Shown here one piece after another: positions 5,700 to 63,376 of a DNA stretch of 63,376 nucleotides. Positions within the stretch are counted from its first letter, which is position 1, and each line of letters begins with the position of its first letter. Below the pieces are notes generated by a model. That model was given only the letters and a program-made list of their open reading frames with translations, ran no database searches and was not told where the DNA came from. Both the position numbers and the translations under genes were made by a program. Origin of the DNA: Acidobacteriota bacterium (GTDB lineage: Bacteria > Acidobacteriota > Thermoanaerobaculia > UBA5066). The DNA is taken from positions 1 to 63,376 of the forward strand of contig JBDTML010000163.1 in the NCBI GenBank assembly GCA_039934255.1, given 5' to 3'.

Positions 5700-5725
5700 C
5701 GGATCGGGTCGGAGCGGGAGGACGA

Positions 5726-6229: not shown

Positions 6230-6259
6230 GAGATGAACCTCCTAATCCCTGATCTGCTT

Positions 6260-6275: not shown

Positions 6276-6402
6276 GGGCTTCCGACGCTGAATCAGGCTC
6301 GTTCGGGCAAAAATTAGGCCGCGAGCACGGCGCCGTTACGAATTTTTGTCGGGGGTAGCGGGGACCGCCGGACACCGTTTGTCGGTGCCACACCGGCCGC
6401 GA

Positions 6403-48791: not shown

Positions 48792-48806
48792 GGAGGCGAG
48801 TCTAGT

Positions 48807-49649
48807 TCAGGGTGTGTCGTGCGTGCCGGACAGAGGCCAGACCGGGAGCAGGAGGAATGCCTCGGGATTCACGCGGGCGCCATTCAACCTCGCGGCCCAG
48901 TGCAGGTGAGGGCCCGTCACGCGTCCGGTGGCGCCGACGAGGCCGAGGATCGCTCCTTTGGCGACGATGTCCCCGTCCTTCACGTCCACGCGCGAGAGGT
49001 GCATGTATTGCGTGAAGAGCCCCCCGCCGTGATCGAGGAGAACGGTGCCGCCCGAGAAGTAGAGGTCGCCGGCGAGGGCCACCCGGCCCGCCGCGGCGGC
49101 GGCGACCGGCGTGCCTTTCGGCGCGGGCATGTCGAGGCCCCCGTGGAAGCTCTGCGTCTTTCCGTTGTAAACGCGCCGCGCGCCGAAGTTCGCGCCTTCG
49201 AACGCGACCGGCCGCGCAAAGGACGACCAGCGGCGCGACGCCTCCGCGCTCCGGTAAGCGGCGTTCACCCGCGCGCCGTCCGCCTTTACCCGCTCCTGCT
49301 CCGCCGGAGGGACTTCGACGTACTTCGGGTCCACCGACAGCTTCTGGATGCGGAAGGCGCCGCGGATAACCTTGAGCGGGAGAGCGAGACGCGCCGCGCC
49401 GTCCGGCGACTCGACGACCACCTCCCGCGTCCCGACCTTCGCGTCGAGGTCGAGGCCGAAGAGGCCGCGGAAGCTCCGGCCGGAAGGGTCCCGCTCGAGG
49501 GGAATGCGCCGCTCGCCGTCCACGAGGACGAGGCCCGTGAGCGCCGCGTCGCTCGTGACGCGGATCCCGGCGACACCGCCCTGCGGCAGCGTCCTCGGAG
49601 CCGCCGTCGCCGTGAGGACGGCCGCGAGAAGAATGGAAGAAGCGCTCAC
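48807..49649 (-). CDS. M23 family metallopeptidase (LytM/lysostaphin-like)
   Basis: The sequence reads FHGGLDMPAPKGTPVAAAAAGRV...LLDHGGGLFTQYMHLS...GATGRVTGPHLHW. GTG at 49649 overlaps the acylase stop as GTGA. Confidence 0.9.
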   Translation of the reverse strand: MSASSILLAAVLTATAAPRTLPQGGVAGIRVTSDAALTGLVLVDGERRIPLERDPSGRSFRGLFGLDLDAKVGTREVVVESPDGAARLALPLKVIRGAFRIQKLSVDPKYVEVPPAEQERVKADGARVNAAYRSAEASRRWSSFARPVAFEGANFGARRVYNGKTQSFHGGLDMPAPKGTPVAAAAAGRVALAGDLYFSGGTVLLDHGGGLFTQYMHLSRVDVKDGDIVAKGAILGLVGATGRVTGPHLHWAARLNGARVNPEAFLLLPVWPLSGTHDTP

Positions 49650-51946: not shown

Positions 51947-52519
51947 TCAGCCCTTCTTCTTCGTGGGCGCCAGCTTCGCGAGAGGCTCGACCCACATCTC
52001 CTCCACGCGGCGCTGCTTGTCGGACATGCCCATCCGATAGCGCAGGCGCACCCGGCACTCCGGGACCGCCCAGGACGACACACCCGGGTCGGAGGCGACG
52101 GGCGTTCCCTTGCCGTAGCGCTCGAGGATTCCTTCGTAAAGTCCGGAAGGCGGGTCGAGGAGGTAGTGCAGTGCCACGACGGTCGCGTCGGCCGCGTCGG
52201 ACGAATAGGTCACGTCCACGATCCATGGCCGCTTCTCTGGGGTGTGCAGGACCTTCACGTCCCGAACGACCGTCTTCTTCGCCGGCTCGTGCAGGGCCAT
52301 CCGCTCGAAAGAAAACGCGCGGGTCTGCCCGATTTCGAGGCCTGCCATTCCGGGGCAGGGGGGCGGCGTCGGGTGGGCCACGGGGGTGCCCGTCGACGGG
52401 GCCGCCGAGCCCGTCTGGGGACCCGTCTGCTGCGTTTGGACCTGAATCTGCGCGTTCGCGGGAAGGGTGGCGAGACCCGCCAGAAAAAGGGCCGTGCAAA
52501 GGAAAAGGAAAGGTTTCAT
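51947..52519 (-). CDS. Secreted hypothetical protein
   Basis: The signal peptide is MKPFLFLCTALFLAGLATLPANA/QI. RBS CAGGAG. No recognisable domain. Confidence 0.6.
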   Translation of the reverse strand: MKPFLFLCTALFLAGLATLPANAQIQVQTQQTGPQTGSAAPSTGTPVAHPTPPPCPGMAGLEIGQTRAFSFERMALHEPAKKTVVRDVKVLHTPEKRPWIVDVTYSSDAADATVVALHYLLDPPSGLYEGILERYGKGTPVASDPGVSSWAVPECRVRLRYRMGMSDKQRRVEEMWVEPLAKLAPTKKKG

Positions 52520-52619: not shown

Positions 52620-54050
52620 TCAGGGCGCGGTCGCGAACTCGAGGAGAACCCGCCTCGTCCGCCCGATCCCATCGATGAAAAGTGGAAGCGAAATGCGTTC
52701 GTTCGGGTGATGGATCGTCGCCGCATCGTAGATGTTCACGGCGAAGGGGGACACGCCGTAAACGCGGAGGCCGCGGGCGCGAATGGCGGCCGCCGACGTG
52801 GCCTGCCCGCTCAGGATATAGGGCCCGACGGGTGCCTTCTCCGGGTCCAGACCGTAAACGTTCTCGATTGCGCGCCAGGCGTTCCCCTCGGTGGGGCTCG
52901 ATACGGAGTCACGGGTCTCGAAAAAGCGGCGGAGGCCGAAGCCCCGGCTCCGAACCCAGCTCTCGAGCTCGGCGCGCGCGGACGCGACCGGGCTTCCCGG
53001 CAGCAGCGTTCTGACGACGCGCATGGAAAAGCCGTCGGATTCCTTTTCGACCCTGCCCGTATAGATGCTGTCCTTGAGAAGTGAACGGTAGACTTCCGGA
53101 ACGTCCTTCCAGAGCTCCGCCTCCGGAACGAGCTTCTCGGCTCCATCCATCATGTAGCGGCCCCAGACATCCGATCGCGAGGGCGCGATGAACCGCAGGA
53201 ACTCCCTCACGGCGGGGACTACGCGGACGGGTTGCTGCTGATCCCGGGCCTTCAGGAATTCGCGGAAATCCTCGAGCGGCTTCGCGGCAGACGACAGGGC
53301 GGCCACGGAGAGAACCGCCTTCTCCATCGTCTCGATGCCGAAGCGCTCGACCTGCTGGGTCTTGACCTCGTTGACTCCTCCCTCGTTGAAGACGTCCGTC
53401 ACGCCCGCGAGGAGGTCCGGCCGGTTGTCGAAGAGCCAGCCCATGCCGAGGTCTTCGCGAAATGTCTCTTCTCCGGACTCGACGACGAAGACGATGTCGC
53501 GGAGCGGCACGAGGCCCGCGCGCGTGAGCGAAACCACGGCGAGGAGGTTTGCGATCGTCTGCCCCTTCATGTCGAGCGTCCCGCGCCCGTAGAGGCGATC
53601 GCGCTCGAGCCCGGCGCCTCGCGCGGCCGCGAACGGCGGACTGACCCACGCGCCGAGATCCCCCGCGGGCACCACGTCCGCATGGTTGAGAAGGGCGAGC
53701 GCGCCCTCCTGGCTTCGGCCCTTGATGCGTGCGACGAGGATCGGGCGCTCCGGATCGGCGCCGGTGATCGCCGACGGAATCCCATCGCACGCGAGAACCC
53801 GGGCGAGAAAGTCGATCGCGGGGCGGGTGATTCCGGGCGGATTCGTCGTGTCGATGCGCACGTATTCCACGAGGAGCTTCACGGCCTCGGTCTCCATGGC
53901 CGCGTCCGCCTCGACGTACACCTGGCGAATCGCGATGGGCGCCGCGAGCCGCGACACAATCGCCGGAACAGCCCAGAGAGCGAGCACGGCGAAAGCGGCA
54001 GCGCCCCCGTACAAGGCGAGGCGCCGCTTCGCGCGAGGCCCCAGCGTCAT
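52620..54050 (-). CDS. M20 family metallopeptidase/deacylase with an N-terminal TM anchor
   Basis: The sequence reads ..LLNHADVVPAGDLGAWVSPPFAA...LYGRGTLDMKGQ...FVVESGEE.. The ATG at 54050 overlaps the upstream stop as ATGA. Confidence 0.85.
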   Translation of the reverse strand: MTLGPRAKRRLALYGGAAAFAVLALWAVPAIVSRLAAPIAIRQVYVEADAAMETEAVKLLVEYVRIDTTNPPGITRPAIDFLARVLACDGIPSAITGADPERPILVARIKGRSQEGALALLNHADVVPAGDLGAWVSPPFAAARGAGLERDRLYGRGTLDMKGQTIANLLAVVSLTRAGLVPLRDIVFVVESGEETFREDLGMGWLFDNRPDLLAGVTDVFNEGGVNEVKTQQVERFGIETMEKAVLSVAALSSAAKPLEDFREFLKARDQQQPVRVVPAVREFLRFIAPSRSDVWGRYMMDGAEKLVPEAELWKDVPEVYRSLLKDSIYTGRVEKESDGFSMRVVRTLLPGSPVASARAELESWVRSRGFGLRRFFETRDSVSSPTEGNAWRAIENVYGLDPEKAPVGPYILSGQATSAAAIRARGLRVYGVSPFAVNIYDAATIHHPNERISLPLFIDGIGRTRRVLLEFATAP

Positions 54051-56170
54051 GTTTTTCCAAACGCGGAGGGGCGCAGCGAAACGAGCAGGCTGACGGCGAG
54101 CGCCAGCGCGGTGACCACGGAAATCATGAACCCGATCTTCACCCACCGCGTGTCCGGCCGCAAACGCAGGTGATGACGTCCTTCCGGAACCGCCAGGCCC
54201 GCGAACCCGAACGCGACGCGCGAGACGCGGGCAGGGCTGCCGTCGAGCGTGGCCTCTTCCGCGGCATCCCACAACCGGTACAGCATGAGAAAGCCCGGGC
54301 CCGGCCCCGCAACCTCGACGTCGAGAAAGAGCCCGGAAGGCCGATCGTCGACGGCCAGGATGCGGCCAGCCGCCGGAGCGGGAGAAACTCCCGGGACCGC
54401 TTCGTCGACGTACGCGGTGTCGACGCCGAAGCCGTCCTCGAGAAGTCGCCCGAAGACGGCGCGAGCGTCGGGGGAGGCCGCGAGCTTCGCCGCGAACCGG
54501 TAAGGCGGAACCGGGTCGCGAATCGGCTCGAGACGCGGCCGGTAGCGCCCGTCCTCTTCTCGCTCGCTCCGGACGATCGCCGAGACGCCCGTGCCACGCA
54601 CGATGCGGATGGCGAGCGCCGGCGTTTCCCGGACGGCGCGATTGAGGAGGCGCGTCCACTCGAACGTTTCCGCCGGAAGCGACAGGTCGTAGTCAACCTC
54701 GAATTGATAGGCGACGCCGAAGAGCGACCCGTAGGCCGGGAGCAGCGATTCCCGACCGACGCGGCCCGAGGCCCTGAGGTCGCGCGAGTCGTACACCGGA
54801 ACGGGGGCGTAGAGGTCCCGGAAGAAGAGGCGCGGCGGTGGGGCGGCGCCTGGGGGCGCGGGAAATCCGGCCAGAAGCGTGGGAGCGCGCGTGATGACCG
54901 ACGCATCCTCGAGAGGCATGAGGCGCCGCGCGATTCCCTCCCGATCGATGAAGATCGCGAAAGCGAGGAGTGGCAAGGCGATGCGAAGAGCCCGGGGCGA
55001 CAGGGCGCCCGCGAGGCTCGACAGCCCCAGCGCGGCGAGCCAGGCGAGCCCGAATCCGAGGAGAACCATGTACTTCTCCGGGTACCGGATCCAGCCGAGA
55101 GGCGGCAGCAGCCGCGCGGCGAGCCCGAAGACCGGCGTGGCGCCGCCGAGGGCGAGGAGGAAGCCTGTGGCCGCGAGGAGCACAGCCGCGACCCGTCCCG
55201 GCCCTTTCCGGACGAGTCCGACGACGACGAGAATCCACGCGACTCGCCCCGGCGTCACGGAGGGAAGGTAGGGATAGTCCGGAATTCCGGGAGCCGACGC
55301 GACGACCGCCCAGTCCGCGACCAGCCCGTCCGTGAAGAGGTCTTTGAGGCGCGACAGCACGAATGGGTTCAACGCGGCGGCAGCCGGGCCCATGCCTCCT
55401 CCCGGCGACCGGATACTGCGTGCGGCTGTGGCCGCCCCCGGCAGGATCGCGATCGCGCCGAGCCCGGCGGCGAGAAACGCGCTCGCCACGAGGAGAGCCA
55501 GCGGACGCGCCTCCTGTCGCCACGTCCCGCCTTCACCGCGTGCCGCGAAGAGAACCGCGACGGCGACACACAACGCGAAAATCACGAATTCGGGCGCCGT
55601 CGCGAGAAGAATAAGGGCCGCCGCGATTCCCACCTTCGCCACCTTCGCCACCTCCGCTACCTCGCGCGTACGCGACGCTTTCACGAGGTCGTAGACGAAT
55701 GCGGCAAACCACGGAAGGATCGAGAGCGCGGACATCGTGGGCGGAAACGTGGCGACGGACACCGCCGCCGCGCCGAGCGCGAAGGCGAGTCCCGCGAGGG
55801 CCGCCGGCCCGCGCAAAAGGCCGAGGCGCCTTCCGAAAGCGGCGAATCCGGCGACGGCCACTCCGAGATGCAGAACGATCCACGCCTTCATCGCGGCCCC
55901 GAGGGGCAGCACGAGGAAGAGGATGTTCGCGGGGTCGAACGGCGCCGCCGAGGGAGCGCCGAGAAGCGGCGCCCCTCCCCATCGAAAGCGATCCACCCAG
56001 GGCAGTTCTCCACGAAGGACCGCTTCGACGAGATGAGCCTTCAGCGGAAAGAAATAAAACAGGAGGTCCCGCCCCACCGGAACGCCGGATCCGAAAAGCC
56101 CGCGAAACGGCAGGAGCACGAGAAGGATCGCCCCGACGAGAGGAAGCGATTCGCGCAGACGTGCCTTCAC
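54047..56170 (-). CDS. YfhO-like polytopic membrane protein (putative GT-C glycosyltransferase), copy 2
   Basis: The sequence reads VPVGRDLLFYFFPLKAHLVEAVLRGELPWVDRFRWGGAPLLGAPSAAPFDPANILFLVLP. It has many TMs and a C-terminal module ..VSRVAFGFAGLAVPEGRHHLRLRP.. GTG at 56170 overlaps the upstream stop as GTGA. Confidence 0.72.
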   Translation of the reverse strand: MKARLRESLPLVGAILLVLLPFRGLFGSGVPVGRDLLFYFFPLKAHLVEAVLRGELPWVDRFRWGGAPLLGAPSAAPFDPANILFLVLPLGAAMKAWIVLHLGVAVAGFAAFGRRLGLLRGPAALAGLAFALGAAAVSVATFPPTMSALSILPWFAAFVYDLVKASRTREVAEVAKVAKVGIAAALILLATAPEFVIFALCVAVAVLFAARGEGGTWRQEARPLALLVASAFLAAGLGAIAILPGAATAARSIRSPGGGMGPAAAALNPFVLSRLKDLFTDGLVADWAVVASAPGIPDYPYLPSVTPGRVAWILVVVGLVRKGPGRVAAVLLAATGFLLALGGATPVFGLAARLLPPLGWIRYPEKYMVLLGFGLAWLAALGLSSLAGALSPRALRIALPLLAFAIFIDREGIARRLMPLEDASVITRAPTLLAGFPAPPGAAPPPRLFFRDLYAPVPVYDSRDLRASGRVGRESLLPAYGSLFGVAYQFEVDYDLSLPAETFEWTRLLNRAVRETPALAIRIVRGTGVSAIVRSEREEDGRYRPRLEPIRDPVPPYRFAAKLAASPDARAVFGRLLEDGFGVDTAYVDEAVPGVSPAPAAGRILAVDDRPSGLFLDVEVAGPGPGFLMLYRLWDAAEEATLDGSPARVSRVAFGFAGLAVPEGRHHLRLRPDTRWVKIGFMISVVTALALAVSLLVSLRPSAFGKT

Positions 56171-58398
56171 GGGCGCGCCCCTCGCCGGGCGACAAGAGCG
56201 ACGGCCAGAAGCGACGCGACGGAGAGCGCCCCCCCGGCGAAGAAGGCGGGGTTCTCGTATGCGAGCGCGATCTCGTGGTCTCCGCCCGGAACGTCCACGG
56301 CCATCATGTATCCGTCCGAGGGGCGGATCGCGAGATCCGCCCCGTCCACCCGAGCATGCCAGTTCGGGTCGAACGTCCGCGCGACGAAAAGCACCGCCAC
56401 AGGAAGGCCCACCCGTACCCGGAGGCGGGCCCGGCCCGGCCGGCTCTCCTCCACCGAAACCGTCCCGCCGCCCGCCGGGAGAAAGCAGAACTCCGCGCGC
56501 GCGCCTTCGACGCGCAGGATCCGGTCCTCTCCGAAGCGGCCGATCTCGACGACTCCGGGCGGATCGGGCGGCACCGCCGCCGTCCTCACGAGAGTCACGC
56601 CGAGAGTGCGCAGGCGCGCGACCTTTTCCGCTCCCCATTGGAGTCCCGCGAGTGCGCGGGCGAAGCGCGCCGAGGGAGCTGCCGTCATGCGGTCCACGTC
56701 GTTCTCCCCGGCGTATCGGATCCCGAAGGCGACACCCGCCGCGGGGAGCAGCGGGTCGAATCCGCCGGCCTCGCGCGTCCGGCGCGCGACCGTCGACGCG
56801 GCGCCGGCGCCGTCGTCGTAGAAGCGCCCGGCCCCGATCCGCGCGCGCACGAGCGCGACCTCGGGTGTCTCGCGGCGGTAAAGATCCGGCGGCCCCGCGG
56901 GGCACGTCCCCGCCACGCGCCGCGCCGCGTCGGCCAGAAACAACACGGCAATGATGCTGGCGAGAAGCATCGTGTCACGGCGCTTTTCTTTGAAGGTGAA
57001 GAGGGAGAACGCGACCGCGCACAGGAGAAGGGTCGCGGTGGCCATGAGAAGCGGCGCTCGAAGGACTCCCGCGACGGCGGCACCAGAGGTATCGCCCACA
57101 CCAAGCCCCATCGCCCATATTCCCTTTCTCAGCAAATCTTCCGCGCCGACCGCCAAAGCGAGGAGCGCGCCGCAAACGAGAGCGAGCCCGGTCGCTCCCC
57201 TCCGAAGCAAATCGACGGCTTTTCTTCTCGTCTCCCCCACCTCATCGGAAAACACAGCATCGACGCCGACCGCCGCCGCCCCCGCGAGCGCGAACGTCAC
57301 GAGGAGCCACCATTTCTCCGGATAGCGAAGGACTGAAACGGCCGCCGCGAGGAACGAGGCCCCGGGCAGGAACCGCCCGAACGAGAGCACGGCTCCGCCG
57401 AGCGCGAGAAGAAGCGCGGCTCGTCCCCGCCTGTCGCGCCACGCGGCCGCGGCGAAAAGGAGCGGAACAAGCCCGAGCGCGAGATCCTCGAAGTAGGGGC
57501 TGCCCGCGTCGAACGTGCCCCTGCCCCAATCGAGGGACGTGTCGCCTTGGGGATCGCCCGTGAGCCGCGGTTCGAGAAGCGTGAGGACGCGCGACGGCCT
57601 CACGGACCGGAAGAGGGCTCCGTGTTCGGGCCGCATCTCGATACCCCGCGCGGAGCGGGAAAGCTCGAGGACCGCCGGACAGATCTGGACCGCCGCAAGA
57701 CCCGCGCCGAGACCCAGCGCGAGAAGCGCGCCGGCAATGGCGCGCCCGCGCGCCTGCCCCGCGCCGAACGCCGCAACCGCGAAGAATGCCGCCGCGCCCA
57801 TCAGCGTCACGGCCGGTTCGCCGCCGAGCGCCGCGAGGCCGACGGCGAGCGCCGCGACGGCGCGGGCGCGACCGCGGGCAGCCGCGTCTCCCGAGGCGAG
57901 GCGGGGCGCCTCGGCGAGCGCGAAGGCAAGCGGCAGGACGGCCGCGCACGTCGTCGCGTAGACCGGAAGCGACTGTGCGACGCCCGAAAAGAGGAGAACG
58001 AGCGTCCCCGCGGCACAGGCCTGAGGCGAGAGGCCGATGCGCCGCAGGGAAAAAAAGAAGACCGCGAGGACGAGAAAGATGGCGACGAAAGCGAGAGCCG
58101 TCGGCGAGAGAACGAGGAGGAGCGGCGAGAGCGGCCAGAACGCGGCGGCATTCGGGTCCGCGGCGAAGGGTCTTCCCGCGGACATCCACTCGTTCCAGAC
58201 GGGCATCTCGCCCGCCCCGAAGAGCCGCCCGAGGGCGAGCCTCCAGGGGACGAAGAAGAAGCCCGCGTCGCGCCGATACAGCGTGCCGCCGACCAGGAAA
58301 GGAGCAAACCGGATCGCGGCGGCAGTGAGAACGGCGGCGAGCGCCCATGCAGTGAAACGGGCGCGGAGGCGAGGGGACTCCTCCGGTGCGCGCGTCAC
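56167..58398 (-). CDS. YfhO-like polytopic membrane protein (putative GT-C glycosyltransferase), copy 3
   Basis: The sequence reads GGTLYRRDAGFFFVPWRLALGRLFGAGEMPVWNEWMSAGRPFAADPNAAAFWPLSPLLLVL. It has many TMs and a C-terminal module ..FDPNWHARVDGADLAIRPSDGYMMAVDVPGGDHEIALAYENP. GTG at 58398 lies 5 nt after the upstream stop. Confidence 0.72.
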   Translation of the reverse strand: MTRAPEESPRLRARFTAWALAAVLTAAAIRFAPFLVGGTLYRRDAGFFFVPWRLALGRLFGAGEMPVWNEWMSAGRPFAADPNAAAFWPLSPLLLVLSPTALAFVAIFLVLAVFFFSLRRIGLSPQACAAGTLVLLFSGVAQSLPVYATTCAAVLPLAFALAEAPRLASGDAAARGRARAVAALAVGLAALGGEPAVTLMGAAAFFAVAAFGAGQARGRAIAGALLALGLGAGLAAVQICPAVLELSRSARGIEMRPEHGALFRSVRPSRVLTLLEPRLTGDPQGDTSLDWGRGTFDAGSPYFEDLALGLVPLLFAAAAWRDRRGRAALLLALGGAVLSFGRFLPGASFLAAAVSVLRYPEKWWLLVTFALAGAAAVGVDAVFSDEVGETRRKAVDLLRRGATGLALVCGALLALAVGAEDLLRKGIWAMGLGVGDTSGAAVAGVLRAPLLMATATLLLCAVAFSLFTFKEKRRDTMLLASIIAVLFLADAARRVAGTCPAGPPDLYRRETPEVALVRARIGAGRFYDDGAGAASTVARRTREAGGFDPLLPAAGVAFGIRYAGENDVDRMTAAPSARFARALAGLQWGAEKVARLRTLGVTLVRTAAVPPDPPGVVEIGRFGEDRILRVEGARAEFCFLPAGGGTVSVEESRPGRARLRVRVGLPVAVLFVARTFDPNWHARVDGADLAIRPSDGYMMAVDVPGGDHEIALAYENPAFFAGGALSVASLLAVALVARRGARP
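56981..57145. repeat. AT-rich repeat pair (arms 56981-57010 and 57115-57145) inside YfhO-like copy 3
   Basis: 56982-57004 (gcttttctttgaaggtgaagagg) is 21/23 identical to 29426-29448. 57123-57138 (cctttctcagcaaatc) matches the reverse complement of 41811-41826. A weaker third piece lies at about 57200-57240 (ccgaagcaaatcgacggcttttcttctcgtctccc). Confidence 0.6.
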
Positions 58399-58403
58399 GT
58401 GCC

Positions 58404-59807
58404 TCAGGGCTTCCGCGCGAGAACCAGAAGCGACATCCCGAACGACGGCTCCGTCTTCTCCTCCGCCCGGAGGAGGGGCATCAGCCACTTGAAGGCGCCG
58501 AGCTGCCTCTTCGGCAGGACGCGGCGCTTCAAAAGGCGGGAATTGACCCACCAGCCGAGGACGCCGGGCCGATTCAGGTATCGGACGGATTCCACGGCGA
58601 AGCCCGCGCGCGCGACGAGCGTCGCGAGGGCGCCCTTTTCGTAGCGACGGTAGTGGCGGAGATTCTCGTCGAGCGTGCCGTAAAGCGCCGGCAGGGCGGG
58701 CACGAGAAGCGCGAGGTGCCCTCCGGGTTGTAGAACGCGCAGGAAGTCGGCGAGCGTTCCGGCGTCGTCCTCGATGTGCTCGAGCACGTTCAGGCAGACG
58801 ATCGAGTCGATGCGCTCGCGGCCGAGGTCGGCGCGATCTCCCTCCGTGAGCGGAAACCGGAACGAGGCGACGCGCACGTTGCCCTGCTTCTCGAACCGGT
58901 TGAGGAGCTCGCGCACGTAGTGCGGTTCGATGTCCGACGCGACGACGCGCTCGCGGTCCGCGAAAAACCGCGTCTGGTTGCCCACGCCCGATCCGACCTC
59001 GAGAACGCGCGACCCGAGCCACGCCTCGAACCGCTCGTGAATCCAGCGGTTGTAGACCGACAGCTCGCTCATACGGCGGAGCGTGATCGCGCCCACGTCG
59101 CTTTCGGGCGCTTCCCACCGGAAGTACTTGAGGATCGTCCAGACCGCCTGAAACGCGTCCTTGAGGCCGATCTTCTTGCCTTCCTCGTAGGTCCGCCCGT
59201 TGTACGAGATGGGGACTTCGTAGATCCGGACGCGCATGCGCGCCACCTTGCACGTGATCTCGGGCTCGACGCCGAACCGCTGCGACCTGAGATCCAGCCG
59301 GTCCACGACTCCGCGGGTCATGACCTTGTAGCAGGTCTCCATGTCCGACAGGTTCAGGTCCGTGAACACGTTCGACATGAGCGTGAGGAGGCGGTTGCCG
59401 ACCGTGTGCCAGAAGTAGAGGACACGGTGCCCGTGCGGACTGCCCAGAAAGCGGGATCCGTACACGACCTCGGCCTTGCCCGCGAGGATGGGGCCGAGAA
59501 GAACCGGATATTCCTCGGGGTCGTACTCGAGATCGGCGTCCTGGATCACGACGAGGTCGCCCGTGGAGGCGCGCATGCCGGCCCACACGGCGGCGCCCTT
59601 CCCCATGTTGCGCGTCTGGAGGATCACGCGCACGCCGTTCTTGCCGTCGAGCTCACGGAGAATGTCGCGGGTTCCGTCCGTCGAGCCGTCGTCGACGATC
59701 ACGATCTCGCGTTCGAGATCCCCGAGGTCCACCGCCAGAACCTGCGCGAGAATCTCGCGGATCGTCTGGCGCTCGTTGTACGCCGGCATCACGATCGACA
59801 ACTTCAT
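58404..59807 (-). CDS. Fusion of a GT2 polyprenyl-phosphate-sugar-synthase-like glycosyltransferase and a class I SAM-dependent methyltransferase
   Basis: The GT2 part reads LSIVMPAYNE...VIVDDGSTDGT...GKGAAV...VIQDADLEYDP (DxD)...SDMETCYK. The methyltransferase part reads VLEVGSGVGNQT...CLNVLEHIED...LQPGGHLALLVP. ATGA overlap with the upstream gene. Confidence 0.88.
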   Translation of the reverse strand: MKLSIVMPAYNERQTIREILAQVLAVDLGDLEREIVIVDDGSTDGTRDILRELDGKNGVRVILQTRNMGKGAAVWAGMRASTGDLVVIQDADLEYDPEEYPVLLGPILAGKAEVVYGSRFLGSPHGHRVLYFWHTVGNRLLTLMSNVFTDLNLSDMETCYKVMTRGVVDRLDLRSQRFGVEPEITCKVARMRVRIYEVPISYNGRTYEEGKKIGLKDAFQAVWTILKYFRWEAPESDVGAITLRRMSELSVYNRWIHERFEAWLGSRVLEVGSGVGNQTRFFADRERVVASDIEPHYVRELLNRFEKQGNVRVASFRFPLTEGDRADLGRERIDSIVCLNVLEHIEDDAGTLADFLRVLQPGGHLALLVPALPALYGTLDENLRHYRRYEKGALATLVARAGFAVESVRYLNRPGVLGWWVNSRLLKRRVLPKRQLGAFKWLMPLLRAEEKTEPSFGMSLLVLARKP

Positions 59808-61534
59808 GGGCTCTGCTCTTTCACGTCGTAAAGAACGATGGAGTATCCCACGCGATCGACCGGAGTTCCCCGCGCCGAGACCGTCTGGCGGAGCCGGCCG
59901 AAGCCCGCGGCGCCCACGGGATCACCGTGAAAGGCGGTCGCCTCCGGACCGCAGCACATCAGGAACGAGGAGACCGCCCAGAGGCCCGGACGGACCGGCG
60001 TCACGGCGGGAGCGAACACGGTCGCCCGCGGCGCGTAATACGGCACGTCGCCGCCGCCGAAGTACGCGATCGTCGCGCGCGCCTCGTCCCCCCGCTCCCG
60101 GAGCCGGCGCGCGAGACGCCCGAGGTCCTGCCCCCAGTCGAGATTCGAGTCGTTGAGCCAGGCCGCGCCGTTCGCCGGGCCTCCGGCCGCCTCGTTGAAG
60201 AACGAAAGCTCGTGCGGATGGATTCGAAGGGTCTCGCCGAGCTGCACCACGGCCCCGGCGAGGAGCACCGCCGCCGCCGAGCGCGCGGGAAGGGCCCGGA
60301 AGAGGACGAGGACCGCCGCCGCGAGGAGGAGCGGATACACCGGCAGCATGTGCCGGATGCCGATGTTGTAGGACGTCGCCATGCCGGTGACGAACAAATA
60401 GGCCGGCGGGAGAACGAGCGTGAGGAGCACGAGGTCGGGCAGCACGCGCCGCGCCACCCCCACGACACAGGCGGCGATCAGGATCGCGAGAAAACCGAGT
60501 GAACTCTTCACCGCGAACGCGACGAAGAAGTACTCCCAGAATCCGTCCACGGAGAGCCTGCCGTGCAGGTAATTCACGCCGCCTCCCGTCCGGTTCTGGA
60601 CGGCGATCCCGGCGAGCCCGGCGGCGTAGTGACCCGCCTCCTTCGACAGACGTGAGACCGCGAGAATCCGGTCGATCGTCTCCTGCGGGGCCTGCCGCGA
60701 GACGAGGAAGATCCGCACGGCTTTTCCGGCCTCGGACCCGCTCATGTGGCGCATCGCGACCGCGTAGCTTCCGAGCAGCACGGCCGCCGACGCCACGCCC
60801 GCGAGGAGAAGGCCGCCGAGCGGGAGGAGATCGGGGGGACGGCCCGCGCGCGCGGCGTCGCGGCGCTCCCGGAGGAGGCCCACGAGGGCGAGAATCGCGA
60901 CCATCGGAACGAGAAGCACGCACGAGAACTTCGCGGCGAGGCTCGCGCCCAGCGCCGCGCCCGTGGCGGTCCAGAGCCAGAGAGACCGGCGCTCGAGCGC
61001 GCGCGTGGCGAGGACGAGCGTGGCGAAGAAACCGAGGGCGGCCGCGAGATCGGTGTGGACGACGCCCGCGTGCGCCAGAAGGTTCGGCTCGAAGGCCAGG
61101 ACCGCGGCCGTGAGGACTCCGGCGAGATCGCCCGCCCACGCCCTTACGGCCGAGGCGGCCACGACGACGAGAAGAAAGAAGAGCACGGCGACCGGCGCGC
61201 GCGCGACGCCGAAGAGCTTCTCCGGTGGGAGCGGCGAGTGAAAGCTGAAGGGCCGGGGTTGCTCGGCCGATCCCATGGAAAAAGGGACGTCCATCTTCGG
61301 CGCGCGCCCGCCCGCCGCACGCAGCGCGAAGCCGGACAGGAGCTTCACGAGCGGCGGATGCTCGAGGTTCGCGTAGTACGTCCCCGAGATCGCGTACTCC
61401 GCCCCCGCCAGCGTGTGAAAGGGCTCGTCCATCGTCGGGCTGTCGAGGCGCGTGTGGTCGAAGACCAGTGCGACGCCGCACGTGGCCAGGACGAGCACGG
61501 CAACACGGAACCTCACGCGGGGAGCGTCGGACAC
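59804..61534 (-). CDS. ArnT/PMT-like (GT39/GT83-type) polyprenyl-phosphate-dependent glycosyltransferase
   Basis: The sequence reads SPTMDEPFHTLAGAEYAISGTYYANLEHPPLVKLL (DE..H and HPPL motifs). It has about 10-12 TMs and a C-terminal soluble region. Confidence 0.8.
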   Translation of the reverse strand: MSDAPRVRFRVAVLVLATCGVALVFDHTRLDSPTMDEPFHTLAGAEYAISGTYYANLEHPPLVKLLSGFALRAAGGRAPKMDVPFSMGSAEQPRPFSFHSPLPPEKLFGVARAPVAVLFFLLVVVAASAVRAWAGDLAGVLTAAVLAFEPNLLAHAGVVHTDLAAALGFFATLVLATRALERRSLWLWTATGAALGASLAAKFSCVLLVPMVAILALVGLLRERRDAARAGRPPDLLPLGGLLLAGVASAAVLLGSYAVAMRHMSGSEAGKAVRIFLVSRQAPQETIDRILAVSRLSKEAGHYAAGLAGIAVQNRTGGGVNYLHGRLSVDGFWEYFFVAFAVKSSLGFLAILIAACVVGVARRVLPDLVLLTLVLPPAYLFVTGMATSYNIGIRHMLPVYPLLLAAAVLVLFRALPARSAAAVLLAGAVVQLGETLRIHPHELSFFNEAAGGPANGAAWLNDSNLDWGQDLGRLARRLRERGDEARATIAYFGGGDVPYYAPRATVFAPAVTPVRPGLWAVSSFLMCCGPEATAFHGDPVGAAGFGRLRQTVSARGTPVDRVGYSIVLYDVKEQSP

Positions 61535-61584
61535 CGGGGGGATTGTAGGGGGAGTGACTCCTCGCCCCTGTTACGCTCGCGCCC

Positions 61585-63376
61585 GTGAGCGCGCGCTCCT
61601 CGGGCCTCTCGCGAGACGGGCAGTTCGTCCTCCTGATCTTCCTCGCGGCCCTGGCCTTGCGCCTCGCGTCCTTCCCCGACGCCACGGCCAGAGGATGGCG
61701 GCTCCTGTCGCCGGACTGCTACGGCCACCTCCGGCGCACGGTCTCGGTCGCCCGCAATTTCCCGCGCGTTCCCGTCCGCGATGCGTACCTCAACCATCCC
61801 GACGGCGGCGTCTTCATCTGGCCGCCCGCGTTCGACCTCCTCGCGGGCGGCATTTCGCGCACCCTTTACGGGCGCGCGGCGACGACGGAGCAGGTCCTGA
61901 GGGTCGCGGCCCTCCTCCCCGCATTCCTCGGCGCGCTCCACGTCCTCCCTCTCTTTGCGGTTGCCCGCCGGGTCCTGGGCCGCCGTCGCGCCCGGATCGC
62001 CGTCGTTGCCTACGCCGCGATTCCGGCCGCCGTCCTCTGGGGAGGTTTCGGGCACTTCGACCATCACGTGGCCGAGGCGCTCAACCTGCTCCTCGTTCTC
62101 GCGGCGGGCGCGTGGACCGTTTCCGCGCAGGGGGAAGCTCGATTCGCGCGCGCCGCCGTTTTCGGCGCCGCGATCGCCCTCGCCGTCCTCACGTGGCAGG
62201 GGGCCGTTTTCGTGGCAGGCCTCGCATTCCTCTGGGCGGCGTTCGCGGTCGGCGAAGCCGCGGCTGTGACGGCGCTCGTCGCGACGACCCTCGTCGCCCT
62301 CGCCACGTTGTTCGTCCTTCCTGCCGCGCCCGTCCCCTTTTCGTTCGTCTCCTTCGGCTGGTTCCAGACGCTGCTCCTCGCCGGTGCAAGCGTGCCGATC
62401 CTCGCGCTCGCCGCGTGGCGGGCCGAGAAACCGCGACGCCGGCTCATTTGGGGGGTGCTCGCGGCCGCGGGCCTGGCCGTCGCCCTGCCGAACGCCCACC
62501 GTGTCCTCGCCGCCGCTTTCCACGGAGGCGCTTACGTCTTCAAGGAGGGTGCGGGGGCGAGCGGGCCCGATTTCGCGGACGGAGGTTTTCTCTCTTATCC
62601 GCAGGAGTTCCTGCGCCTCGTCGCCGAGTGCCAGCCTCTCGTCAGCAGCTGGAAATCGCTCGAACGTGCCCTCCGCGAGCTTTCGCCGGGTTTCCTCCTC
62701 GTGCCCCTCGCGGCCGTTCTCTGGGTGACGATCGCGCTCCGTCAGCCGCGCCTGCCACGCTCGCTCGGCCGGATCCTCCTCGCGCTCTTCGCCGCCGCGG
62801 TGTTCGCGATGGCCCTCTTTCAGCAGCGCAACGTGTACTACCTCGCGATCTTCAGCGCCCTCGCGCTCGCCGAGGCTTGCGCGCGCGTGGCCCCCCGCCC
62901 GCGCGGCTTTCCGAGGACGGCTTTCGTGTACCTGCTTGCCGCCGGTCTCGTGATCGTGCCGGGCTGGCCCTATCTTCAGAGAGCCCGCGCCTTCGCAAGC
63001 GGACCCGGTTATGACGTTCTCGAGCTCTTCACGAGGCTGCGCGCCCTCGACCCGCCTCCCGTGGATCCGGCGGCCGTCCCGCAACAGGCTCCGGGAACGA
63101 TTCCCGGCGTGATGCCGCCGTGGTCCGCGGGTCACTTCGTCACCGCGCTCGCGGAGCGGCCGGCCGCGGCGGACCCGTTCGTCTACGGATGGCGCCGGCA
63201 ATGCCGGCTGTTCACGGCGACCGACGATGCCGAGGCGTTCGCGATTTTGAAGGCCGCGAAGTGCCGGTATCTCGTCACGACGGAGCTCACGTCGCTCCTG
63301 GCCGCCTACGCGGCCGCCGCGGGCCGCGCGCCTGCGCCCACGAGCGCGATGTTCGCGCGGCGCGTGCACGAGTCCG
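61585..63376 (+). CDS. STT3/AglB-like oligosaccharyltransferase homologue, 3' end outside the window (ORF not listed in the track because it has no stop here)
   Basis: I translated frame 1 by hand from GTG 61585 and found no stop through 63376 (597 codons). The recognisable blocks are LLSPDCYGHLRRT (first DxD-type motif), HFDHHVAEALN, LRLVAECQPL (SVSE/TIXE-type motif) and MPPWSAGHFVTALAERPAAADPF (at the position of WWDYG). There are many TMs. Confidence 0.7.
   Translation, partial: MSARSSGLSRDGQFVLLIFLAALALRLASFPDATARGWRLLSPDCYGHLRRTVSVARNFPRVPVRDAYLNHPDGGVFIWPPAFDLLAGGISRTLYGRAATTEQVLRVAALLPAFLGALHVLPLFAVARRVLGRRRARIAVVAYAAIPAAVLWGGFGHFDHHVAEALNLLLVLAAGAWTVSAQGEARFARAAVFGAAIALAVLTWQGAVFVAGLAFLWAAFAVGEAAAVTALVATTLVALATLFVLPAAPVPFSFVSFGWFQTLLLAGASVPILALAAWRAEKPRRRLIWGVLAAAGLAVALPNAHRVLAAAFHGGAYVFKEGAGASGPDFADGGFLSYPQEFLRLVAECQPLVSSWKSLERALRELSPGFLLVPLAAVLWVTIALRQPRLPRSLGRILLALFAAAVFAMALFQQRNVYYLAIFSALALAEACARVAPRPRGFPRTAFVYLLAAGLVIVPGWPYLQRARAFASGPGYDVLELFTRLRALDPPPVDPAAVPQQAPGTIPGVMPPWSAGHFVTALAERPAAADPFVYGWRRQCRLFTATDDAEAFAILKAAKCRYLVTTELTSLLAAYAAAAGRAPAPTSAMFARRVHES

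What the first reader, a model, noticed from the sequence alone, without database searches (positions are those of the whole stretch)
52620..61534. Operon of four lipid-carrier-type glycosylation enzymes (ArnT/PMT-like, GT2-methyltransferase fusion, two YfhO-like) coupled to an M20 peptidase, divergent from the STT3-like gene
Five minus-strand genes are joined by ATGA/GTGA overlaps or 5-nt gaps:
- 59804..61534: GT39/83-like
- 58404..59807: GT2 of the dolichyl/polyprenyl-phosphate-sugar synthase type, fused to a SAM methyltransferase
- 56167..58398: YfhO-like
- 54047..56170: YfhO-like
- 52620..54050: a membrane-anchored M20 peptidase

Together with the divergent STT3-like gene, four putative GT-C enzymes share one putative lipid-sugar synthase. 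This pattern is expected for periplasmic glycosylation of proteins or envelope polymers, possibly with a methylated sugar. The number of GT-C paralogues, the GT2-methyltransferase fusion and the coupled peptidase are all unusual. The acceptor is unknown.
Basis: partly seen in the sequence, partly recalled or inferred. Interest (0 to 1): 0.68.

Follow-up and report, generated by a model that had tools for sequence, protein, structure and literature searches.

The report
Periplasmic glycosylation operon, uncultured Acidobacteriota
Five tightly coupled genes in an uncultured Acidobacteriota (Thermoanaerobaculia-like) genome encode a lipid-linked-sugar synthase fused to a methyltransferase, three membrane glycosyltransferases that act outside the cytoplasm, and an exported metal-dependent hydrolase: a real, conserved but uncharacterised variant of a known way of decorating the bacterial envelope.

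Summary
Five minus-strand genes (52620-61534) are joined by ATGA, GTGA and ATGA overlaps and one 5-nt gap. The same order and junctions recur in relatives down to about 45% identity.

Family calls hold:
- A is PMT/PMT_2-like with an invariant DE motif.
- B is a DPM1/ArnC/GtrB-type GT2 fused to an intact class I SAM methyltransferase.
- C and D are distant paralogues. Their AlphaFold models (pLDDT 85 and 89) match GT-C enzymes (AftD, ArnT, STT3, AftA) and show YfhO architecture.
- E is an exported M20 hydrolase with all metal ligands invariant.

Corrections:
Relatives carry a second GT2, a third YfhO-like gene and Arn-like sugar-nucleotide genes just beyond the window end.
- The window holds another YfhO-like gene next to pilin genes.
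- The GT2-methyltransferase fusion is not rare. It occurs in many phyla, often beside a GT-C gene.
- The STT3-like protein lacks the WWDYG motif.

[quoted passage not shown] The acceptor, the sugar and the M20 role are unresolved. It is a new variant of a known kind, of moderate interest.

The parts
59804..61534 (-). Gene A: 576-aa polytopic GT-C glycosyltransferase of the PMT/PMT_2 (GT39/GT83-like) type
   Evidence: Pfam PMT scores 28.0 bits (cut-off 22.7) and PMT_2 26.8 bits (cut-off 26.1). D36-E37, H40, H59, K202 and R394-H395 are invariant in 8 orthologues, including a 22%-identical Chthoniobacter protein that also sits beside a GT2-MT fusion. There is no PDB sequence hit. The fold was not modelled.
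58404..59807 (-). Gene B: 467-aa fusion of a polyprenyl-phosphate glycosyltransferase-type GT2 (aa 1 to about 236, nt about 59100-59807) with a class I SAM methyltransferase (aa about 250-467, nt about 58407-59060). It has no transmembrane helix.
   Evidence: Pfam Glycos_transf_2 3.6e-34; Methyltransf_23, _12, _11, _25 and _31 all above cut-off. Best NCBIfam hits are AglJ, ArnC, PgfS, PpgS and Dol-P-hexose transferase. Best PDB sequences are P. furiosus Dol-P-Man synthase 5mlz (2.5e-23, aa 1-236), ArnC and GtrB sll0501. The motifs DADLEY, GSRF, DMETCYK, E.G.G.G, NVLEH and H.RRY are conserved in 30 fusions from many phyla. B is the most conserved protein of the operon, at 74-79% identity where C is 45-62%.
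56167..58398 (-). Gene C: 743-aa YfhO-like GT-C glycosyltransferase
   Evidence: The AF2 model has pLDDT 85.3 and pTM 0.88. Foldseek top hits are AftD 6w98, ArnT 5f15 and STT3, all at probability 1.0. R43-D44 is invariant in the first loop. A C-terminal beta-sandwich plus a terminal TM helix matches the end of the Pfam YfhO and NCBIfam PgfM1/PgfM2 profiles. Many orthologues carry PF09586.
54047..56170 (-). Gene D: 707-aa YfhO-like GT-C glycosyltransferase, a distant paralogue of C
   Evidence: D itself has no Pfam hit. hhalign of the D family against the C family gives probability 100 and E 2.2e-39 over the full length. BLASTP of C against D gives 8e-7. The AF2 model has pLDDT 89.4 and pTM 0.90. 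Foldseek hits are AftD, STT3, AglB 3wak and AftA 8if8. R34-D35 is invariant. Seven of 36 family members hit Pfam YfhO weakly.
52620..54050 (-). Gene E: 476-aa exported, membrane-anchored M20 metallohydrolase, translationally coupled to D
   Evidence: Pfam Peptidase_M20 1.5e-17. NCBIfam hits are PRK07906 and ArgE/DapE deacylase-type models. The nearest PDB sequences are DapE and PepV. H123, D125, D160, E194-E195, E223 and H447 are invariant. The N-terminus is KRR followed by a 22-residue hydrophobic segment. The diverged variants L008 and L010 have a lipobox there instead.
61535..61584 (.). 50-nt divergent intergenic region between A and the STT3-like gene
   Evidence: Read from the sequence. 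The gap is 26-148 nt in relatives. No sigma-70-like site was found. How the divergent transcripts start is unknown.
61585..63376 (+). STT3/AglB-like GT-C gene, cut off by the window end (about 597 of about 640 codons)
   Evidence: Pfam STT3 1.1e-7 and AglB_core-like 9e-7. TIGR04154 scores 180 bits, below its cut-off of 450. The first-loop D, the GH.DHH motif and the AE..PL motif are conserved, but PWS[A/L]GH replaces WWDYG in all 8 orthologues.

Best explanation
The five genes form one operon encoding the core of a multi-component transmembrane (periplasmic) glycosylation system.

Proposed steps:
1. Inferred from family. B, a peripheral-membrane enzyme, transfers a monosaccharide from a nucleotide sugar to polyprenyl (undecaprenyl) phosphate at the cytoplasmic face. 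This is what Dol-P-Man synthase, ArnC, GtrB and CsbB do.
2. Inferred, weaker. The fused SAM methyltransferase of B methylates that lipid-linked sugar, or its nucleotide precursor, so the donor is a methylated sugar.
3. Not identified here. A flippase encoded elsewhere moves the lipid-linked sugar to the periplasmic face.
4. Fold and catalytic motif shown; activity inferred. The three GT-C enzymes A, C and D each use a conserved acidic residue in their first periplasmic loop to transfer the sugar to a different acceptor position.
5. Export signal and intact active site shown; role inferred. E, the M20 hydrolase made in fixed stoichiometry with D, cleaves an amide bond on the acceptor or product. 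The substrate is most likely a peptide or an amino-acid substituent.

The operon is one arm of a larger divergent locus. In relatives the other arm holds the STT3-like gene, a second GT2, a third YfhO-like gene and often Arn-like genes. The acceptor is unresolved. I rate an envelope glycan or glycolipid slightly above proteins.
For: Operon structure:
- Junctions were read from the sequence.
- Identical order and overlaps occur in L001, L003, L004, L005 and L007, and a diverged variant in L008-L010 and L026.

B as a lipid-sugar synthase:
- Its best structural-sequence relatives are Dol-P-Man synthase, ArnC and GtrB, matched across the catalytic domain and interface helices.
- NCBIfam hits are AglJ, ArnC, PgfS and PpgS.
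- The DXD and SAM motifs are conserved across phyla.

GT-C enzymes:
- AF2 plus Foldseek place C and D in the GT-C fold.
- Acidic first-loop residues are invariant.
- A passes the Pfam cut-offs.

The GT2-MT plus GT-C module recurs outside this clade:
- 13 of 38 fusion loci have a protein of at least 400 aa and at least 6 TM segments within 400 nt, and 5 more have one within 3 kb.
- Of the 8 such neighbours scanned against Pfam, 3 were PMT_2 and 1 YfhO.

E:
- Export signal and invariant metal ligands.
- M20 coupling to a YfhO-like gene is kept in both cluster variants, with 4-nt overlaps in L008 and L010.

Framework: multi-component transmembrane glycosylation systems combine a GT-A C55-P-sugar synthase, a flippase and a GT-C enzyme, and one flippase or donor can serve several GT-Cs (PMC8035078).

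Glycan-acceptor hint: the C-terminal beta-sandwich of C matches beta-sandwich domains of glycoside hydrolases (ranks 26-36).
Against: - No flippase (GtrA, Wzx or ArnE/F-like) lies in the operon. No small 3-4-TM protein was seen among the window genes scanned from 1 to 42904.
- C is below the Pfam YfhO cut-off and D has no hit, so their family placement rests on fold and profile comparison.
- No biochemical precedent for methylation of a polyprenyl-phosphate monosaccharide by a fused domain was found in three literature searches.
- M20 enzymes are not known to act on glycans.
- The sugar identity cannot be read from the sequence.
- Transcription as one mRNA is inferred only from gene spacing.
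Confidence: 0.7

Rival explanations
1. A protein glycosylation system. A (PMT-like) and the YfhO-like enzymes O-glycosylate secreted or envelope proteins, as the S. mutans Pgf system (PgfS with PgfM1 and PgfM2) or actinobacterial Ppm1/PMT do. E trims the glycoprotein or peptide substrate.
For: - A hits the protein O-mannosyltransferase families.
- C matches the PgfM1 and PgfM2 C-termini, and B matches PgfS.
- A further YfhO-like paralogue (3367-5580) lies in one gene string with two type IV pilin-like genes and a prepilin peptidase.
- M20 enzymes act on peptides or N-acyl amino acids.
- The conserved 190-aa secreted protein just downstream has a Q/T/S/P-rich linker.
- An STT3-like gene is adjacent.
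Against: - PMT_2 and YfhO members mostly modify teichoic acids, polysaccharides or lipid A (PMC8035078).
- The STT3-like protein lacks WWDYG.
- C and D carry carbohydrate-binding-like beta-sandwich domains, and their best fold hits are AftD, ArnT and AftA.
- No acceptor has been demonstrated.
Confidence: 0.3
2. A lipid A or LPS-core modification locus related to the Arn (aminoarabinose) pathway. One GT2 acts as ArnC and one GT-C as ArnT, and the others add further substituents.
For: - In relatives the locus is flanked by a UDP-4-keto-pentose/UDP-xylose synthase (ArnA C-terminal type, 556 bits against a cut-off of 294), an ArnD-like deformylase (186 bits) and a formyltransferase.
- The GT2 domain of B matches ArnC (67.7 bits; PDB ArnC 1e-16).
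- ArnT is a top fold hit of C.
- A DedA/VTT-domain gene lies 4.4 kb away.
Against: - The Arn-like genes lie on the other arm, next to the second GT2, and are absent from L003.
- They cannot be seen in this window.
- A has no sequence hit to ArnT structures.
- B scores far below the ArnC cut-off (67.7 against 529).
- The fusion family occurs widely without Arn-like neighbours.
Confidence: 0.2
3. Stepwise periplasmic assembly of a polymer or of a lipid-linked oligosaccharide by successive GT-C enzymes, as in mycobacterial arabinan (AftA-D, Emb) or the ER-lumenal ALG enzymes. This would be building rather than decoration of a pre-made acceptor.
For: - The locus holds five GT-C genes with two Pren-P-sugar synthases.
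- AftD and AftA are the best fold matches of C and D.
- The paralogues have diverged strongly (26% identity), which fits distinct linkages.
Against: - Nothing marks a primer, a chain-length regulator or an exporter in the window.
- Foldseek similarity among GT-C enzymes does not discriminate function.
Confidence: 0.15
4. The genes are merely co-located. The M20 hydrolase and neighbouring periplasmic hydrolases belong to unrelated envelope housekeeping, and synteny reflects shared ancestry within one class.
For: - Genes downstream of E (penicillin amidase, M23 peptidase, OsmC) are also syntenic in relatives although functionally unrelated.
- All E homologues retrieved belong to the same clade.
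Against: - The 4-nt D/E start-stop overlap is kept at 45% identity.
- It is also kept in the rearranged variant clusters L008 and L010, where other genes have been inserted, lost or inverted.
Confidence: 0.1

Closest known systems
Multi-component (three-component) transmembrane glycosylation systems: GtrA/GtrB/GtrC, CsbB/GtcA/YfhO, GtlA/GtcA/GtlB, L. lactis CsdAB/CD/EF with CflA
   Same: A Dpm1-like GT2 is encoded with GT-C enzymes of the PMT_2 and YfhO types. The GT-C first-loop acidic residues are conserved. Several GT-Cs can share a carrier or flippase (PMC8035078).
   Different: - One GT2 is followed by three GT-Cs in a single operon.
- The GT2 has no TM anchor and carries a fused methyltransferase instead.
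- No flippase gene is present.
- An exported M20 hydrolase is translationally coupled.
- The host is a diderm acidobacterium, whereas YfhO functions are known only from Firmicutes.
Streptococcus mutans Pgf system (PgfS, PgfM1, PgfE, PgfM2)
   Same: One GT2 is encoded with two YfhO-like GT-C paralogues in one locus. B hits the PgfS model, and C hits the C-terminal ends of the PgfM1 and PgfM2 models.
   Different: - Scores are far below the equivalog cut-offs (26 against 1500 bits).
- There is no epimerase.
- The methyltransferase, the PMT_2-like enzyme and the M20 are additions.
- A protein acceptor is not shown here.
Arn pathway (ArnA, ArnD, ArnC, ArnT) for lipid A aminoarabinosylation
   Same: The logic of a GT2 Und-P-sugar synthase plus a GT-C transferase is shared. 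ArnA-like and ArnD-like genes flank the locus in relatives. ArnC and ArnT are among the best structural relatives.
   Different: - No equivalog-level match was found.
- The Arn-like genes lie outside the window and on the other arm.
- A is not detectably ArnT by sequence.
Archaeal Agl N-glycosylation (AglJ, AglP methyltransferase, AglB, AglS)
   Same: AglJ is the best NCBIfam hit of B at 124 bits. An STT3/AglB-like gene is adjacent, with TIGR04154 at 180 bits.
   Different: - All scores are below the family cut-offs.
- The STT3-like protein lacks WWDYG.
- The methyltransferase is fused to the GT2.
- The GT-Cs are bacterial YfhO/PMT_2-type enzymes.
Mycobacterial Pren-P-sugar / GT-C pairs (Ppm1/PMT, PpgS/Rv3779, AftA-D)
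   Same: AftD and AftA are the top fold hits of C and D. PpgS is among the hits of both GT2s. Ppm1 is a precedent for fusing the Pren-P-sugar synthase to a second enzyme domain; this last point is from my own knowledge.
   Different: The fused partner is different (a methyltransferase, not Lnt). The sugars are different, the envelope is different, and there is no sequence-level orthology.

Membership tests
GT-C glycosyltransferase, YfhO family (PF09586) | Match to the family profile above the curated cut-off | tested here: not met
   C scores 22.9 bits against a cut-off of 28.5, on the C-terminal 54 residues only. D has no hit. Many C orthologues and 7 of 36 D-family members do hit PF09586. 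The window paralogue 3367-5580 passes at 36.7 bits and is homologous to C.
GT-C glycosyltransferase, YfhO family (PF09586) | GT-C fold of the N-terminal transmembrane module | tested here: met
   The AF2 models have pLDDT 85.3 and 89.4. Every Foldseek hit at E<=0.001 (5 for C, 12 for D) is a GT-C enzyme, namely AftD, ArnT, STT3, AglB and AftA, at probability 1.0.
GT-C glycosyltransferase, YfhO family (PF09586) | Conserved acidic catalytic residue in the first extracytoplasmic loop | tested here: met
   R43-D44 is invariant in 37 C-family sequences and R34-D35 in 36 D-family sequences. The side of the membrane is inferred from the models, not measured.
GT-C glycosyltransferase, YfhO family (PF09586) | Large extracytoplasmic C-terminal domain followed by a terminal TM helix | tested here: met
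   Model secondary structure shows a beta-sandwich at 601-714 and a helix at 717-737 in C, and strands at 529-670 and a helix at 675-699 in D.
Polyprenyl-phosphate glycosyltransferase (Dpm1/GtrB/ArnC-like GT2) | GT-A catalytic domain with a DXD motif, most similar to Pren-P-sugar synthases | tested here: met
   Pfam GT2 scores 118.5 bits. PDB matches are 5mlz DPMS at 2.5e-23 over aa 1-236, then ArnC and GtrB. DADLEY, GSRF and DMETCYK are conserved in 30 sequences.
Polyprenyl-phosphate glycosyltransferase (Dpm1/GtrB/ArnC-like GT2) | C-terminal transmembrane anchor (as in GtrB, ArnC, CsbB and archaeal DPMS) | tested here: not met
   B has no hydrophobic segment, and the methyltransferase domain follows the interface-helix region. 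This feature is not universal. PpgS and the 247-aa GT2 of relatives also lack an anchor.
Polyprenyl-phosphate glycosyltransferase (Dpm1/GtrB/ArnC-like GT2) | Formation of Pren-P-monosaccharide from a nucleotide sugar | not testable with these tools
   This needs a membrane assay with labelled nucleotide sugars.
Class I SAM-dependent methyltransferase | Rossmann-type domain with motif I (E/DxGxGxG) and an acidic motif II residue | tested here: met
   Five Methyltransf Pfam families score above cut-off. LEVGSGVG and D292 are invariant in the clade, and E.G.G.G and NVLEH are conserved across phyla. The substrate is unknown.
PMT/PMT_2 GT-C (GT39/GT83-like) | Profile match and an acidic DE motif in loop 1 | tested here: met
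   PMT scores 28.0 (cut-off 22.7) and PMT_2 26.8 (cut-off 26.1), both marginal. D36-E37 is invariant in 8 sequences.
M20 metallopeptidase/deacylase | Profile match and a complete set of di-zinc ligands with the catalytic Glu | tested here: met
   Pfam scores 64.7 bits. H123, D125, D160, E194, E195, E223 and H447 are invariant.
Three-component / multi-component transmembrane glycosylation system | A dedicated flippase (GtrA, Wzx or ArnE/F type) encoded with the GT2 and GT-C | tested here: not met
   None lies in the operon or in the orthologous loci. No small 3-4-TM protein was seen among the window genes scanned from 1 to 42904. Flippases are often encoded elsewhere and shared (PMC8035078). 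L008 and L010 have two extra unassigned polytopic proteins.
Oligosaccharyltransferase STT3/AglB/PglB (the neighbouring gene) | WWDYG motif that binds the +2 Ser/Thr of the sequon | tested here: not met
   All 8 orthologues have PWS[A/L]GH at the aligned position. The Pfam STT3 and AglB_core domains and the first-loop D, GH.DHH and AE..PL motifs are present.
Operon | Same strand, overlapping or near-abutting genes, with order conserved in distant relatives | tested here: met
   A single transcript is not testable here.
Arn pathway | ArnC and ArnT equivalogs together with ArnA, ArnB and ArnD | tested here: inconclusive
   ArnA-DH-like (above cut-off), ArnD-like (below cut-off) and formyltransferase genes lie in relatives only. 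B scores 67.7 against the ArnC cut-off of 529. A has no ArnT match. ArnB was not seen.

The most novel reading that the evidence does not exclude
The two divergent arms together encode a bacterial pathway that resembles ER-lumenal or archaeal glycan assembly.
- Lipid-linked monosaccharides are made by the two Dpm1-like GT2s, one of them methylated by its fused domain.
- The YfhO-like and PMT-like GT-Cs use them on the periplasmic face to build or extend a glycan.
- A non-canonical STT3-like enzyme without WWDYG then transfers that glycan to an acceptor that is not an N-X-S/T sequon.
- The coupled M20 hydrolase processes the acceptor peptide.

The widespread GT2-methyltransferase plus GT-C module would then be an undescribed general route for placing methylated sugars on the bacterial surface.
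Probability: 0.12. Interest if true: 0.8.

Novelty: new variant of a known kind. Interest (0 to 1): 0.45.

Why it matters
Extracytoplasmic glycosylation by GT-C enzymes is well studied in Firmicutes, mycobacteria and enterobacteria. It is essentially unexplored in Acidobacteriota.

This locus shows three things:
- YfhO-type enzymes have radiated in a diderm lineage. At least three, and probably four to five, paralogues occur per genome.
- A Dpm1-like synthase fused or paired with a SAM methyltransferase forms a recurrent module with GT-C enzymes across many phyla. That points to a testable and, as far as my searches show, undescribed route to methylated surface sugars.
- An exported M20 hydrolase can be hard-wired to a GT-C enzyme.

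The STT3-like neighbour without WWDYG is a candidate for a non-canonical transferase specificity. None of this changes a paradigm, but it gives concrete enzymes for glycoengineering and for understanding the envelopes of abundant soil and sediment bacteria.

Tried and rejected
- Exact-sequence look-ups of window proteins returned nothing, although the contig is the source of P0001. Context therefore had to come from homologues.
- Sequence searches of the PDB with the C and D family profiles and with A gave no meaningful hits. Only fold comparison placed C and D.
- A homologue search with E returned only the same clade, all at 51% identity or more. It could not show whether M20-GT-C coupling exists elsewhere.
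- Three literature searches found nothing on point. The topics were STT3 in Acidobacteria, and GT2-methyltransferase fusions with GT-C or polyprenyl phosphate. The one paper retrieved for methyltransferase domain, GT-C and GT2 (PMC13390465) concerns unrelated Actinoplanes clusters.
- The promoter and terminator scan showed nothing above the shuffled background.
- I rejected B as ArnC. Its score is far below the cut-off, and the fusion family is not linked to Arn genes elsewhere.
- I rejected the STT3-like gene as a canonical N-OST because WWDYG is absent.
- I rejected the small 82-92-aa gene after M20 in some relatives as a component. It is absent from the window and looks cytoplasmic.
- The representative-library search, the metagenome scan and the viral scans were not used. 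They give no context that could be followed up.

Full report
**Source and observation**

The window is a 63,376-nt contig of an uncultured Acidobacteriota MAG. Protein C is 100% identical to an NCBI protein from a contig of exactly that length, and its relatives are labelled Thermoanaerobaculia. G+C is about 70%.

The junctions read directly from the sequence:

| Junction | Arrangement | Coordinates |
|---|---|---|
| A/B | ATGA overlap | 59804-59807 |
| B/C | 5-nt gap | 58399-58403 |
| C/D | GTGA overlap | 56167-56170 |
| D/E | ATGA overlap | 54047-54050 |

The chosen starts agree with orthologue N-termini. No internal terminator-like or promoter-like signal exceeds the shuffled expectation. 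The divergent STT3-like gene starts at about 61585, 50 nt from A, and runs off the window end.

**What each gene is**

| Gene | Coordinates | Size | Assignment |
|---|---|---|---|
| A | 59804-61534 | 576 aa | PMT/PMT_2-type GT-C |
| B | 58404-59807 | 467 aa | Dpm1/ArnC/GtrB-type GT2 fused to a class I SAM methyltransferase |
| C | 56167-58398 | 743 aa | YfhO-like GT-C |
| D | 54047-56170 | 707 aa | YfhO-like GT-C, distant paralogue of C |
| E | 52620-54050 | 476 aa | Exported M20 metallohydrolase |

*Gene A.* It passes the Pfam cut-offs for PMT and PMT_2, though only marginally. D36-E37, H40, H59, K202 and R394-H395 are invariant across eight orthologues. One of these is a 22%-identical Chthoniobacter protein that also sits beside a GT2-methyltransferase fusion.

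*Gene B.*
- It has a strong GT2 domain and five SAM-methyltransferase Pfam families above cut-off.
- The GT2 half is most similar to polyprenyl-phosphate sugar synthases. NCBIfam gives AglJ, ArnC, PgfS, PpgS and Dol-P-hexose transferase.
- Among solved structures, P. furiosus Dol-P-Man synthase is best (2.5e-23 over residues 1-236), followed by ArnC and GtrB.
- B has no transmembrane segment. The methyltransferase domain takes the place of the usual C-terminal anchor.
- B is the most conserved protein of the operon, at 74-79% identity where C is 45-62%.

- C hits Pfam YfhO only over its last 54 residues and below the cut-off. D hits nothing.
- The two families are colinear paralogues. BLASTP gives 8e-7. 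hhalign gives probability 100 and E 2.2e-39 over 663 columns.
- AlphaFold2 models built on alignments of 37 and 36 sequences are confident: pLDDT 85.3 with pTM 0.88 for C, and 89.4 with pTM 0.90 for D.
- In Foldseek against the PDB, every hit at E<=0.001 is a GT-C enzyme. C matches AftD, ArnT and then STT3. D matches AftD, STT3, AglB and AftA.
- Both have an invariant Arg-Asp pair just after the first helix: R43-D44 in C and R34-D35 in D.
- Both have a C-terminal beta-sandwich followed by a terminal helix, which is the YfhO architecture.

*Gene E.*
- It is an M20 hydrolase, nearest to ArgE/DapE-type models and to DapE and PepV structures.
- All metal ligands and the catalytic Glu are invariant.
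- Its N-terminus is KRR followed by a 22-residue hydrophobic segment, which reads as a signal anchor.
- In the diverged cluster variants L008 and L010 the orthologue carries a lipobox instead. Both versions place the enzyme outside the cytoplasm.

**Synteny**

Homologue contigs at 62%, 52%, 47% and 44% identity to C show the same order, PMT_2 / GT2-MT / C / D / M20, with the same 4-nt overlaps. A phmmer screen of all 86 fetched loci gave two results:
- The full cluster occurs only in Thermoanaerobaculia-like loci L001-L007.
- A rearranged variant occurs in L008-L010 and L026.

The variant has an extra GT2-only gene, only one C/D-like gene, and two further unassigned polytopic proteins. It still has the M20 gene overlapping the YfhO-like gene by 4 nt.

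**The window edge hides part of the locus**

In all relatives the STT3-like gene is followed on its own strand by two further genes:
- a second Dpm1-like GT2 of 247 aa, which also hits AglJ and PpgS;
- a third YfhO-like protein of about 761 aa, homologous to C.

Next to these, most relatives carry a set of Arn-like genes:
- a UDP-4-keto-pentose/UDP-xylose synthase of the ArnA C-terminal type (556 bits against a cut-off of 294);
- an ArnD-like deformylase (186 bits, below cut-off);
- a formyltransferase.

L003 lacks these Arn-like genes and L004 lacks the STT3-like gene, so the parts are separable modules. 'Four GT-Cs sharing one synthase' is thus not the real count. The locus has five GT-C genes and two synthases, and the window holds yet another YfhO-like gene (see 'Noticed in passing').

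**The fusion is not rare**

- Full-length fusions at 36-50% identity occur in Bryobacteraceae, Solibacteraceae, Acidobacteriaceae, Vicinamibacterales, Planctomycetota, Chthoniobacter and other Verrucomicrobiia, Myxococcales, Anaeromyxobacter, Anaerolineae, Desulfobaccales and Latescibacteria.
- In Bacteroidota (L023, L039) the GT2 and methyltransferase are two adjacent genes.
- Both catalytic signatures are conserved in 30 fusions from these phyla.

Outside the core clade, 13 of 38 fusion loci have a protein of at least 400 aa and at least 6 TM segments within 400 nt, and five more have one within 3 kb. Eight such neighbours were scanned against Pfam:

| Result | Number |
|---|---|
| PMT_2 | 3 |
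| YfhO | 1 |
| DUF7657 | 1 |
| TPR-bearing membrane protein | 1 |
| No hit | 2 |

The GT2-MT plus GT-C pairing, with A-B as its local instance, is therefore a recurrent module. I found no paper describing it. That is absence from a limited library, not proof of novelty.

**Mechanism**

[quoted passage not shown] In these, a GT-A enzyme makes C55-P-sugar, a flippase moves it, and GT-C enzymes transfer it outside the cytoplasm. Several GT-Cs may share one flippase (PMC8035078).

Shown here:
- gene order and coupling;
- folds and family relations;
- conserved catalytic residues;
- export signals.

Inferred:
- that B makes a polyprenyl-P-monosaccharide;
- that the fused methyltransferase methylates it;
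- that A, C and D serve different acceptor positions;
- that E cleaves an amide bond on the acceptor or product.

Missing: a flippase. None is in the operon, the orthologous loci, or among the window genes scanned from 1 to 42904.

**The acceptor is unresolved**

For a glycan or glycolipid acceptor:
- The C-terminal beta-sandwich of C resembles beta-sandwich domains of glycoside hydrolases (ranks 26-36).
- AftD, ArnT and AftA are the best fold hits.
- Arn-like genes flank the locus in relatives.
- Known bacterial PMT_2 and YfhO enzymes mostly modify teichoic acids or polysaccharides.

For a protein acceptor:
- A belongs to the PMT family.
- B and C give Pgf-like hits.
- The pilin-linked paralogue is suggestive.
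- M20 enzymes act on peptides and N-acyl amino acids.
- The 190-aa secreted protein downstream has an S/T/P/Q-rich linker.

I rate the general mechanism at about 0.7. Within it, I rate a glycan or lipid acceptor slightly above a protein acceptor.

**Comparison with known systems and novelty**

The closest known systems are:
- the Firmicute CsbB/YfhO and GtlA/GtlB systems;
- the S. mutans Pgf locus, which has one GT2 with two YfhO-like enzymes;
- the Arn pathway;
- the archaeal Agl pathway;
- the mycobacterial Pren-P-sugar / GT-C pairs.

No equivalog-level membership is met for any of them. All NCBIfam scores lie far below the curated cut-offs.

The locus is a new variant of a known kind. Its components belong to known families. 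The combination is uncharacterised: three GT-Cs behind an anchorless GT2-methyltransferase fusion, a hard-wired exported M20, and a WWDYG-less STT3-like neighbour, all in a diderm.

**Noticed in passing**

1. Genes 3367-5580. This is a 737-aa YfhO-like GT-C (Pfam YfhO 36.7 bits, above cut-off; hhalign against the C family gives probability 99.7). It lies between two type IV pilin / T2SS-G-like genes and a prepilin peptidase, with no GT2 nearby. It may draw on the donor made by B.
2. The STT3-like protein. Its orthologues have PWS[A/L]GH where canonical oligosaccharyltransferases have WWDYG, while the membrane-domain acidic motifs are kept.
3. A DedA/VTT-rhodanese gene lies at 47396-48202.
4. 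Periplasmic hydrolase genes follow the operon on the same strand and are syntenic in relatives. They are a penicillin-amidase family gene, an M23 peptidase and OsmC (synteny). A class A beta-lactamase-like gene lies further on, on the opposite strand.

**Verdict**

Interest is moderate (0.45).

Noticed in passing
window 2192-6888 (minus strand): There is another YfhO-like GT-C gene at 3367-5580 (737 aa). It passes the Pfam YfhO cut-off, and hhalign against the C family gives probability 99.7. Its N-terminus carries the motif RGDLADFFWP. It lies directly between two type IV pilin / T2SS-G-like genes (5726-6229, 6403-6888) and a prepilin peptidase A24 gene (2192-3361). No GT2 is nearby. This suggests pilin glycosylation of the TfpW kind, possibly using the lipid-linked sugar made by gene B.
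   Followed up: partly
window 61585-63376 (+), and L001:4890-6809, L003:4828-6798, L005:4862-6850, L007, L008, L009, L026: The STT3/AglB-like protein has PWS[A/L]GH at the position of the WWDYG motif in all 8 orthologues. The first-loop Asp, the GH.DHH motif and the AE..PL motif are kept. It is therefore an STT3-fold enzyme that probably does not recognise N-X-S/T sequons.
   Followed up: partly
L001:1-4880, L004:1-6741, L007:3-6294 (beyond the right end of the window): In relatives the STT3-like gene is followed by a 247-aa Dpm1-like GT2 and a YfhO-like protein of about 761 aa. Flanking these are ArnA-C-terminal-like (PRK11908, 556 bits), ArnD-like and formyltransferase genes. The window is cut inside a larger two-armed glycosylation locus.
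   Followed up: partly
window 51947-52519 (-): A 190-aa secreted protein lies just downstream of the M20 gene. It has a signal peptide followed by a Q/T/S/P-rich linker, has no family hit, and is conserved at the same place in L001 and L003. It is a possible glycosylation acceptor.
   Followed up: no
window 47396-48202 (+): A DedA/VTT-domain protein fused to a rhodanese domain lies here, and the gene is syntenic in L001. From my own knowledge, DedA proteins have been linked to undecaprenyl-phosphate recycling and to Ara4N modification. It could recycle the carrier released by the GT-C enzymes.
   Followed up: no
window 44984-45883 (+) and 48381-51934 (-): On the minus strand just downstream of the operon lie a penicillin-amidase family gene (762 aa, weak PvdQ similarity), an M23 peptidase (Pgp3-like) and OsmC, in an order conserved in relatives. 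A class A beta-lactamase-like gene lies further on, on the opposite strand. Whether any of these are functionally tied to the M20 gene is unknown.
   Followed up: no
L023:9989-13006 and L039:9989-12988: In two Bacteroidota genomes the GT2 and the methyltransferase homologous to the two halves of B are separate adjacent genes. They are followed immediately by a polytopic membrane protein, which is PMT_2 in L023. This supports a functional GT2 + MT + GT-C module that predates the fusion.
   Followed up: partly
L008:3866-5422, L008:11540-12934, L010:895-2421, L010:8504-9847: The variant clusters carry two extra polytopic membrane proteins of 447-518 aa with 7-9 predicted TM segments and no Pfam hit. 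They could be flippases or further transferases.
   Followed up: partly
L041:11408-14020: In an Acidobacteriaceae genome the GT2-MT fusion is followed by an 870-aa protein with 14 predicted TM segments. It matches DUF7657 (241 bits) and DUF7654, which are uncharacterised families that may be GT-C-like partners of the fusion.
   Followed up: no
window 61535-61584: Only 50 nt separate the divergent start codons of gene A and the STT3-like gene (26-148 nt in relatives), and no sigma-70-like promoter was found. This raises the possibility of leaderless or overlapping divergent transcripts.
   Followed up: no
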